DNA of 64,000 bases from Escherichia coli (GTDB lineage Bacteria > Pseudomonadota > Gammaproteobacteria > Enterobacterales > Enterobacteriaceae), in assembly GCF_003334405.1 (NCBI RefSeq), contig NZ_QOWM01000003.1; one strand, 5' to 3'. Shown one piece after another: positions 42,447 through 42,590 of this stretch (the stretch's first letter is position 1; each line of letters begins with the position of its first letter). A program made the translations under genes and the position numbers. A model generated the notes under the pieces. That model ran no database searches. It was not told the DNA's origin and saw only the letters and a list, made by a program, of their open reading frames with translations.

Positions 42447-42590
42447 TATCTTGCCGGATGCGGTGTTAACGACTCATCCGCGTTGACATGAAAAGACGCG
42501 TTAGGCGTCGTATCATGCAGCGCTTGTCGGATGCGGCGAGTGCCTTATCCGACCTACATCGATGATCCGCGTAGGCCTGATAAGCGTAGC
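42447..42590. repeat. REP/BIME cluster
   Basis: Several copies of REP-like palindromic units (gccggatgcgg..., gtcggatgcggcg..., tgccttatccgacctac, gtaggcctgataagcgtagcgc) between ydhP and sodB. Confidence 0.8.

What the first reader, a model, noticed from the sequence alone, without database searches (positions are those of the whole stretch)
42447..42590. REP/BIME cluster between ydhP and sodB
Multiple REP-type palindromes occupy the convergent ydhP-sodB gap. This is normal for E. coli but it is the only repeat-family element in the window, and it lies in the sodB 3' region where it could affect mRNA stability.
Basis: partly seen in the sequence, partly recalled or inferred. Interest (0 to 1): 0.2.

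Follow-up and report, generated by a model that had tools for sequence, protein, structure and literature searches.

The report
REP/BIME cluster in sodB 3' UTR
The ydhP-sodB gap holds an ordinary, already catalogued E. coli REP/BIME repeat cluster, sitting inside the sodB 3' untranslated region and varying from two to four hairpins between strains, so it is real but not new.

Summary
Four REP palindromes in alternating orientation lie at 42453-42599 between convergent ydhP and sodB: a degenerate Y remnant, a degenerate Z1, a Y and a near-perfect Z2. The REP tail motif with at most one mismatch occurs twice in 64 kb, both times here (0.01 expected). The Y-Z2 doublet has at least 23 places in every one of 5,426 complete E. 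coli genomes. K-12's counterpart is catalogued as REPv128ab.

The sodB intrinsic terminator (42398-42423) lies beyond the REPs, so they should be transcribed in a roughly 230-nt sodB 3' UTR. In Citrobacter, Enterobacter, Trabulsiella and Salmonella arizonae the same terminator follows the sodB stop within about 5-11 nt, with no REP. The cluster is therefore an Escherichia-lineage insertion.

The site has three alleles: four REPs (this window, 1,350 genomes), K-12 type (minus 73 bp, about 351) and a short type (minus 89 bp, about 3,700). Each short form fits one deletion between same-orientation REPs. REP4 carries the exact IS621 target and holds IS621 in at least five genomes.

The claim that this is the window's only repeat-family element is wrong: an ERIC/IRU element lies at about 9605-9715. 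Any effect on mRNA stability is plausible but untested. Low interest; already known.

The parts
41219..42388 (+). ydhP coding sequence (MFS transporter), converging on sodB
   Evidence: ORF. RefSeq annotation under the matches.
42387..42423 (-). sodB intrinsic terminator. It is an 11-bp perfect stem with a 4-nt loop (42398-42423) followed on the minus strand by UUUUGUUUAAU. It is conserved across genera and lies downstream of all four REPs in the sodB direction.
   Evidence: Terminator scan. RNA fold gives -17.8 kcal/mol, z -7.4. The same CGCAGAAGG-loop-CCTTCTGCGTTTT hairpin starts about 5-11 nt after the sodB stop in Citrobacter, Enterobacter, Trabulsiella and S. arizonae.
42453..42487 (+). 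REP1: a degenerate Y-type REP remnant (GCCGGATGCGGTG...CATCCGCGTTGAC)
   Evidence: Score 20 of 34 against the Y consensus. The head motif matches with 1 mismatch. The hairpin is weak (-7.3 kcal/mol, z 0.2).
42482..42518 (-). REP2: a degenerate Z1-type REP that shares a 6-nt palindromic tail (GTTGAC) with REP1. It aligns without gaps to the single Z1 REP of E. whittamii at the same site.
   Evidence: Score 18 of 36 against Z1. Hairpin -13.5 kcal/mol, z -4.2. Gap-free alignment to L052, with the shared deviation CTTTTCA from the consensus. Its inner stem plus UUUU was also flagged as terminator-like.
42526..42557 (+). REP3: a Y-type REP (GTCGGATGCGGCGAGTGCCTTATCCGACCTAC). Its outer stem carries a paired change relative to the consensus (GCCGG..CCGGC becomes GTCGG..CCGAC).
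   Evidence: Hairpin -15.4 kcal/mol on the sodB-sense RNA, z -4.7.
42558..42570 (.). 13-nt tail-to-tail linker between REP3 and REP4 (ATCGATGATCCGC)
   Evidence: Inverted repeat I1; sequence.
42571..42599 (-). REP4: a Z2-type REP with 28 of 29 matches to the consensus. It begins 23 nt after the sodB stop codon. It contains the exact natural IS621 target ATCAGGCCTAC (42571-42581, minus strand).
   Evidence: Score 27 of 29. The tail motif matches with 0 mismatches. Hairpin -12.8 kcal/mol. The IS621 target sequence is given in PMC11208160. IS621 is inserted here in strain K99B.
42450..42536 (+). Direct repeats CTTGCCGGATGCGG (42450-42463) and CTTGTCGGATGCGG (42523-42536), which are the heads of REP1 and REP3. 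The 73 bp that K-12 lacks equals their spacing.
   Evidence: Family D2; alignment.
42476..42584 (+). Direct repeats ATCCGCGTTGACATGAAAAG (42476-42495) and ATCCGCGTAGGCCTGATAAG (42565-42584), which are the tails of REP2 and REP4. The 89 bp that the commonest E. coli allele lacks equals their spacing.
   Evidence: Family D1; alignments.
42623..43204 (-). sodB coding sequence (Fe superoxide dismutase)
   Evidence: ORF; RefSeq annotation.

Best explanation
This is a bacterial interspersed mosaic element (BIME): four REP palindromic units in alternating orientation. From the ydhP side they are a Y remnant, a degenerate Z1, a Y and a Z2. It belongs to the E. coli REP repeat family.

The cluster was inserted in the Escherichia lineage between the sodB stop codon and the ancestral sodB intrinsic terminator. 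RNA polymerase transcribing sodB must cross it before terminating at 42398-42423. The REPs are therefore part of a roughly 230-nt sodB 3' UTR and fold into three stable hairpins.

The most likely effect is the general one shown for REPs in other mRNAs. The hairpins act as extra barriers to 3'-to-5' exonucleases, and clearing them needs RhlB/PNPase or polyadenylation. On this transcript I expect the effect to be modest and dispensable.

At the DNA level the cluster behaves as mobile or selfish repeat DNA. Recombination between same-orientation REPs has produced 2-REP alleles, and REP4 is a natural landing site for IS621.

Shown here: the identity, anatomy, position relative to the terminator, strain polymorphism, absence in sister genera and IS621 insertion. 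Inferred: transcription through the REPs and any effect on mRNA decay.
For: - Consensus matches occur only at this site in the window, and the tail motif is far above chance.
- The doublet is multicopy in all 5,426 genomes.
- The consensus strings I used are confirmed in PMC11208160.
- A K-12 table lists REPv128ab beside sodB (PMC10100675).
- The terminator has its T-run on the sodB strand only and lies beyond the REPs.
- The same terminator directly abuts the sodB stop in four other genera, with no REP.
- The sodB-sense 3' UTR folds at -90.8 kcal/mol, z -4.97. REP2, REP3 and REP4 give hairpins of -12.8 to -15.4 kcal/mol.
- Allele counts are 1,350 genomes with four REPs and 1,701 with an intact Y-Z2 pair, out of 5,426.
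- The deletion sizes equal the spacings of the direct repeats, and the short-allele REP has a REP4-like head and a REP2-like tail.
- IS621 sits in REP4 at ATCAGGC|CT|AC, with the exact junction in five genomes.
- REPs as 3'-exonuclease barriers, cleared by RhlB/PNPase or poly(A): PMC10100675 discussion, and Newbury et al. 1987 (listed in the references of PMC7509114).
Against: - No RNA data were available, so the sodB 3' end in this strain is predicted rather than mapped.
- The terminator hairpin itself already protects the 3' end, so the REPs may add little.
- The cluster is absent from sister genera and varies from 2 to 4 units within E. coli. That argues against a selected role in sodB expression.
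- In PMC10100675 the sodB row appears after the heading for down-regulated genes. Carrying a REP did not make sodB behave like the stabilised REP transcripts in that study.
- REP1 does not fold better than shuffled sequence.
Confidence: 0.8

Rival explanations
1. The cluster is a neutral passenger. It is REP/BIME DNA but has no measurable effect on sodB or ydhP expression. It persists only because insertion in a 3' UTR upstream of an intact terminator does no harm.
For: It is absent in Citrobacter, Enterobacter, Trabulsiella and S. arizonae, where the terminator directly follows sodB. Three alleles with 2-4 REPs coexist in E. coli. IS621 insertion in the cluster is tolerated. REP1 and REP2 are decaying.
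Against: REPs placed in 3' UTRs have measurable effects on decay of other E. coli mRNAs (PMC10100675). Three stable hairpins remain in the predicted transcript.
Confidence: 0.35
2. The cluster acts at the DNA or transcription level between convergent genes. It could be a DNA gyrase binding and cleavage site that relieves positive supercoiling between ydhP and sodB. It could also be a Rho-assisted attenuator that stops ydhP read-through from running antisense into sodB.
For: BIME-2 and atypical BIMEs bind gyrase strongly, and REPs facilitate Rho-dependent termination (PMC2817692 background). On the ydhP strand the shared hairpin has no T-run after it (sequence), so ydhP lacks an obvious strong terminator before the REPs. 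The genes converge.
Against: There is only one intact Y-Z2 pair. The same convergent gene pair works without any REP in other genera. Nothing here tests binding or termination.
Confidence: 0.12
3. The region encodes a separate product: a small RNA derived from the sodB 3' UTR, or a small protein.
For: ORFs of 47 aa (42466-42609, -) and 51 aa (42531-42686, +) cross the REPs. The 3' UTR is long and structured.
Against: There is no Rfam match in the gap. The 73-bp and 89-bp indels in most genomes are not multiples of three and would disrupt both ORFs. The one promoter-like site is at chance level (1 found, 1.6 expected). RefSeq annotates no gene here.
Confidence: 0.02

Closest known systems
REPv128ab of E. 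coli K-12 (the REP pair listed with sodB)
   Same: It lies at the same locus with the same flanks. REP4 (Z2), the linker and the 3' arm of REP3 are identical, and the terminator and both gene ends are identical. The name comes from the table in PMC10100675.
   Different: K-12 lacks 73 bp (window 42464-42536 as aligned; the exact boundaries are ambiguous within the flanking direct repeat). It therefore has two REPs, a REP1-head/REP3-tail chimera plus Z2, where this window has four.
BIME-2 / atypical BIMEs (Y and Z2 units in alternating orientation)
   Same: It has a Y-Z2 pair arranged tail to tail with a short linker, and the units alternate +,-,+,-. It has no IHF site. The unit number differs between strains.
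   Different: Only one intact Y-Z2 pair is present. The second pair is a decayed Z1 plus a Y remnant whose tails overlap, so the array is mixed and fits 'atypical' best.
REP mRNA stabilisers (the malE-malF type; Newbury et al. 1987)
   Same: Stable REP hairpins lie in a transcribed region 3' of a coding sequence.
   Different: Here the REPs are followed by a strong intrinsic terminator instead of sitting between two cistrons. No decay data exist for this site.
IS621 (IS110-family, bridge-RNA recombinase) target sites in REPs
   Same: REP4 holds the exact natural 11-nt target ATCAGGCCTAC. A natural insertion is flanked by the CT core on both junctions.
   Different: The window itself has the empty site.

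Membership tests
E. coli REP (palindromic unit) family | Sequence match to the Y, Z1 or Z2 consensus | tested here: met
   REP4 scores 27 of 29 against Z2, REP3 21 of 34 against Y, REP1 20 of 34 against Y and REP2 18 of 36 against Z1. No other site in the 64 kb reaches half the maximum. The consensus strings are as printed in PMC11208160.
E. coli REP (palindromic unit) family | Imperfect palindrome that folds into a stable stem-loop | tested here: met
   REP2, REP3 and REP4 give -12.8 to -15.4 kcal/mol with z -3.7 to -4.7. REP1 fails (z 0.2) and is a remnant.
E. coli REP (palindromic unit) family | Extragenic position | tested here: met
   All four lie in the 234-nt gap between the ydhP and sodB stop codons.
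E. coli REP (palindromic unit) family | Many dispersed copies per genome | tested here: met
BIME | Two or more REPs close together in alternating orientation | tested here: met
   The orientations are +,-,+,- within 147 nt.
BIME-1 (RIP/RIB) | IHF-binding motif between a Y and a Z1 unit | tested here: not met
   The IHF consensus WATCAANNNNTTR has no match in the gap.
BIME-2 | Tandem repeats of Y-Z2 units | tested here: inconclusive
   There is one intact Y-Z2 pair. The second pair is a Z1 remnant plus a Y remnant, so 'atypical BIME' fits best.
BIME-2 | Strong DNA gyrase binding or cleavage | not testable with these tools
   The property is stated in PMC2817692. It needs an experiment.
REP 3' mRNA stabiliser | REP lies within the transcript, upstream of the transcript's 3' end | tested here: met
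   This is met at the sequence level only. The single strong sodB-strand terminator is at 42398-42423, beyond the REPs, and is conserved across genera. No 3'-end mapping was available.
REP 3' mRNA stabiliser | Removing the REP shortens the half-life of the upstream mRNA | not testable with these tools
   It needs rifampicin chase experiments on allele swaps.
REP-mediated translation down-regulation (Liang, Rudd and Deutscher 2015; recalled from memory) | REP begins within about 15 nt of the stop codon | tested here: not met
   REP4 begins 23 nt after the last base of the sodB stop codon. ydhP is 64 nt from REP1.
IS621 target site | Exact 11-nt target ATCAGGCCTAC with a CT core | tested here: met
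   The target lies at window 42571-42581 on the minus strand. The target sequence is from PMC11208160. The site is occupied in K99B and four other genomes.

The most novel reading that the evidence does not exclude
The three natural alleles are four REPs, the K-12 two-REP form and the short two-REP form. They give predicted sodB 3' UTRs of about 230, 158 and 142 nt. These alleles might set different sodB mRNA half-lives, or alter the decay intermediates left after RyhB/RNase E cleavage. That would make REP copy number a heritable tuner of Fe-superoxide dismutase level between E. coli lineages.
Probability: 0.1. Interest if true: 0.3.

Novelty: already known. Interest (0 to 1): 0.12.

Why it matters
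It matters little as a discovery. REP/BIME clusters number in the hundreds per E. coli genome, and this one is catalogued in K-12.

The useful points are practical:
- The annotation should place the REPs inside the sodB 3' UTR, because the terminator lies beyond them.
- The site is a clean example of BIME gain in one genus and of copy-number change by deletion between same-orientation REPs.
- The site is a natural IS621 (bridge recombinase) target.
- The allele series provides ready material for testing whether 3' UTR REPs change mRNA decay.

Tried and rejected
- Rfam, whole window at gathering thresholds: nothing in the gap.
- IHF motif, which would indicate BIME-1: absent.
- Promoter scan of the gap: one site, at chance level.
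- Small ORFs across the REPs: rejected. The 73-bp and 89-bp indels present in most genomes are not multiples of three, and no gene is annotated there.
- Translation effect of a stop-proximal REP: the 23-nt distance is too long.
- Window-wide scan for other long perfect palindromes: no further canonical REP.
- The match at 8721-8737 to the REP head motif lies inside the 8323-9435 ORF, has no REP tail, and was dismissed.
- Exact 26-mer of the terminator against genome contigs: 0 hits, although every E. coli examined has it. E. coli itself was also absent from the 79 loci of the second scan. That collection therefore gave outgroups only, and E. whittamii was the only other Escherichia species sampled.
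- Literature search for sodB together with REP: only a table entry, no dedicated study.
- The Liang 2015 paper could not be found in the held library, so it is cited from memory.

Full report
**What is there**

The window carries ydhP (41219-42388, + strand) and sodB (42623-43204, - strand) converging on a 234-nt gap. RefSeq names both genes under the matches.

I scanned the whole 64-kb window, both strands, with the three E. coli REP consensus sequences (Y, Z1, Z2). These are the same strings printed in the methods of PMC11208160. Only four sites scored at least half the maximum, and all four lie in this gap:

| Unit | Coordinates | Strand | Type | Score |
|---|---|---|---|---|
| REP1 | 42453-42487 | + | Y-like | 20 of 34 |
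| REP2 | 42482-42518 | - | Z1-like | 18 of 36 |
| REP3 | 42526-42557 | + | Y | 21 of 34 |
| REP4 | 42571-42599 | - | Z2 | 27 of 29 |

The alternating orientation defines a BIME.

**More than chance**

- The REP tail motif CTTATCMGGCCTAC with at most one mismatch occurs twice in the window, both times here. The expectation is 0.01, and no shuffle out of 100 reached two.
- The 74-nt REP3-REP4 doublet finds at least 23 places in each of 5,426 complete E. coli genomes.
- On the sodB-sense RNA, REP4, REP3 and REP2 fold at -12.8, -15.4 and -13.5 kcal/mol, with z scores of -3.7 to -4.7.
- REP1 folds no better than shuffled sequence and is a remnant.
- There is no IHF motif, so this is not a BIME-1. 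With one intact Y-Z2 pair plus a decayed Z1/Y pair, it fits an atypical BIME.
- A K-12 table lists REPv128ab beside sodB (PMC10100675).

**Position relative to the transcript**

The only strong terminator in the gap is an 11-bp perfect hairpin at 42398-42423. Its T-run is on the minus strand, the sodB strand, and it folds at -17.8 kcal/mol with z -7.4. It lies next to the ydhP stop codon, on the far side of all four REPs as seen from sodB.

The REPs are therefore predicted to be transcribed as part of a sodB 3' UTR of about 230 nt. The whole UTR folds at -90.8 kcal/mol, z -4.97. This placement is inferred from sequence, because no RNA data were available.

REP4 begins 23 nt after the stop codon. 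That is outside the roughly 15-nt range reported for REP-induced ribosome stalling (Liang et al. 2015, recalled from memory).

**Comparison with other genera**

I searched species-representative genomes with a degenerate pattern for the SodB C-terminus and obtained 79 loci. Only Escherichia whittamii had an E. coli-type REP within 450 nt downstream of sodB.

In Citrobacter, Enterobacter, Trabulsiella and Salmonella enterica subsp. arizonae the same hairpin (CGCAGAAGG-loop-CCTTCTGCGTTTT) starts about 5-11 nt after the sodB stop. In the first three genera convergent ydhP follows directly; the simple ydhP motif check found no ydhP within 450 nt in S. arizonae.

The BIME is therefore an Escherichia-lineage insertion between sodB and its ancestral terminator.

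E. whittamii has two units: a Z1 REP and a REP1-like remnant. Its Z1 aligns without gaps to the window's REP2 and shares the same departure from the consensus (CTTTTCA). I read REP2 as the orthologue of that older unit.

**Variation within E. coli**

All 5,426 genomes have the locus. There are three alleles (alignment):

| Allele | REPs | Difference from window | Genomes |
|---|---|---|---|
| Window type | 4 | none | 1,350 |
| K-12 type | 2 | lacks 73 bp | about 351 |
| Short type | 2 | lacks 89 bp | about 3,700 |

- The K-12 count is derived: 1,701 genomes have an intact Y-Z2 pair, minus the 1,350 of window type.
- The short allele is found for example in SE15, 536, EC958, O55:H7 and H15.
- The 73-bp gap equals the spacing of the direct repeats formed by the heads of REP1 and REP3. 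The 89-bp gap equals the spacing of the repeats formed by the tails of REP2 and REP4.
- The sodB-proximal REP of the short allele has a REP4-like head and a REP2-like tail.

Both short forms can therefore be derived from a 4-REP form by one deletion between same-orientation REPs. This history is an inference. I did not place the alleles on a strain tree.

**IS621**

In strain K99B an IS110-family element annotated as IS621 sits inside REP4. The junctions are GTAG|...|GCCTGATAAG on the plus strand. On the minus strand this is ATCAGGC-CT-AC, with CT at both junctions. That is exactly the natural IS621 target reported in PMC11208160. The exact junction occurs at 100% identity in five genomes: K99B, KO11FL, HBUT-L, hubt-sl and ST2350. 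The window has the empty site.

**How it most likely works**

The hairpins most likely act as they do in other REP-containing mRNAs, as barriers to 3'-to-5' exonucleases. RhlB/PNPase or polyadenylation must clear them (PMC10100675; Newbury et al. 1987, listed in the references of PMC7509114).

I expect a modest and dispensable effect at this site, for four reasons:
- The terminator hairpin already caps the transcript.
- Sister genera lack the element.
- E. coli tolerates two to four units and an IS insertion.
- In PMC10100675 the sodB row appears under the down-regulated group, not among the stabilised REP transcripts.

The main rival is a fully neutral passenger. A DNA-level role, as a gyrase site or a Rho-assisted stop for ydhP read-through, is possible from the literature but untested. 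A separate RNA or protein product is very unlikely.

**The side claim**

The cluster is not the window's only repeat-family element.
- An ERIC/IRU element lies at about 9605-9715 on the minus strand, in the gap between the ORFs at 8323-9435 and 9824-12880. It carries both standard ERIC primer sites (recalled from memory) with a few mismatches, and it has a median of 9 places per E. coli genome.
- A REP-like hairpin follows grxD at 44843-44870. A K-12 table lists REPt127 beside grxD.
- This cluster is, however, the only canonical REP site in the window.

**Verdict**

The feature is real, correctly identified, ordinary and already catalogued. Interest is low.

Noticed in passing
window 9605-9715 (-): An ERIC/IRU element lies in the gap between the ORFs at 8323-9435 (-) and 9824-12880 (+), probably ydiK and ydiJ (gene names recalled from K-12, not checked). 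It reads GTGAACTCCAGGAGCTTACAATAGTAAGTGACTGGGGTGAACG and has a median of 9 places per E. coli genome. It refutes the claim that the REP cluster is the window's only repeat-family element.
   Followed up: yes
window 44843-44870: A REP-like hairpin, GACGGATGC-GAACGG-GCATCCGTC, lies in the 50-nt gap between convergent grxD and lhr. A K-12 table lists REPt127 beside grxD (PMC10100675). It scored below threshold against the Y, Z1 and Z2 consensus sequences.
   Followed up: partly
L004 2776-4053 (strain K99B); empty site at window 42574/42575: IS621, the IS110-family bridge-RNA recombinase element, is inserted in REP4 at its exact natural target, with the CT core at both junctions. The same junction is present in KO11FL, HBUT-L, hubt-sl and ST2350.
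   Followed up: yes
E. coli genome searches: About 100 genomes have two places matching the ydhP-sodB gap, and one place is on a plasmid. K99B is explained by the IS621 split. The others were not examined and could be further IS insertions or duplications.
   Followed up: no
window 40666-41056 (+): There is a strong Rfam match to STnc550 (396 bits) in the purR-ydhP gap. That gap holds cydH in the annotated K99B genome.
   Followed up: no
window 31793-31955 (+), overlapping tRNA genes at 31920-32074 (-): An Rfam match to HPnc0260, described as a 'bacterial antisense RNA' (112 bits), runs opposite the first of two tRNA genes. It may reflect tRNA-antisense content in that family rather than a real gene.
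   Followed up: no
window 8030-8137 (-) and 13741-13801 (+): The small RNAs RprA and RydB are found at gathering threshold. They anchor the window to the K-12 1.71-1.78 Mb region in reverse orientation (K-12 map position recalled from memory).
   Followed up: no
window 42495-42509 (-): The inner stem of REP2 followed by UUUUCAUG was flagged as terminator-like on the sodB strand. It is present only in the 4-REP allele and, in intact form, in E. whittamii. It could cause partial termination inside the 3' UTR.
   Followed up: no
Genome-contig collection: The exact 26-nt terminator sequence, present in every E. coli examined, gave 0 hits. E. coli was also missing from the 79 SodB C-terminus loci. 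The E. coli representative therefore seems not to be reachable in that collection.
   Followed up: no
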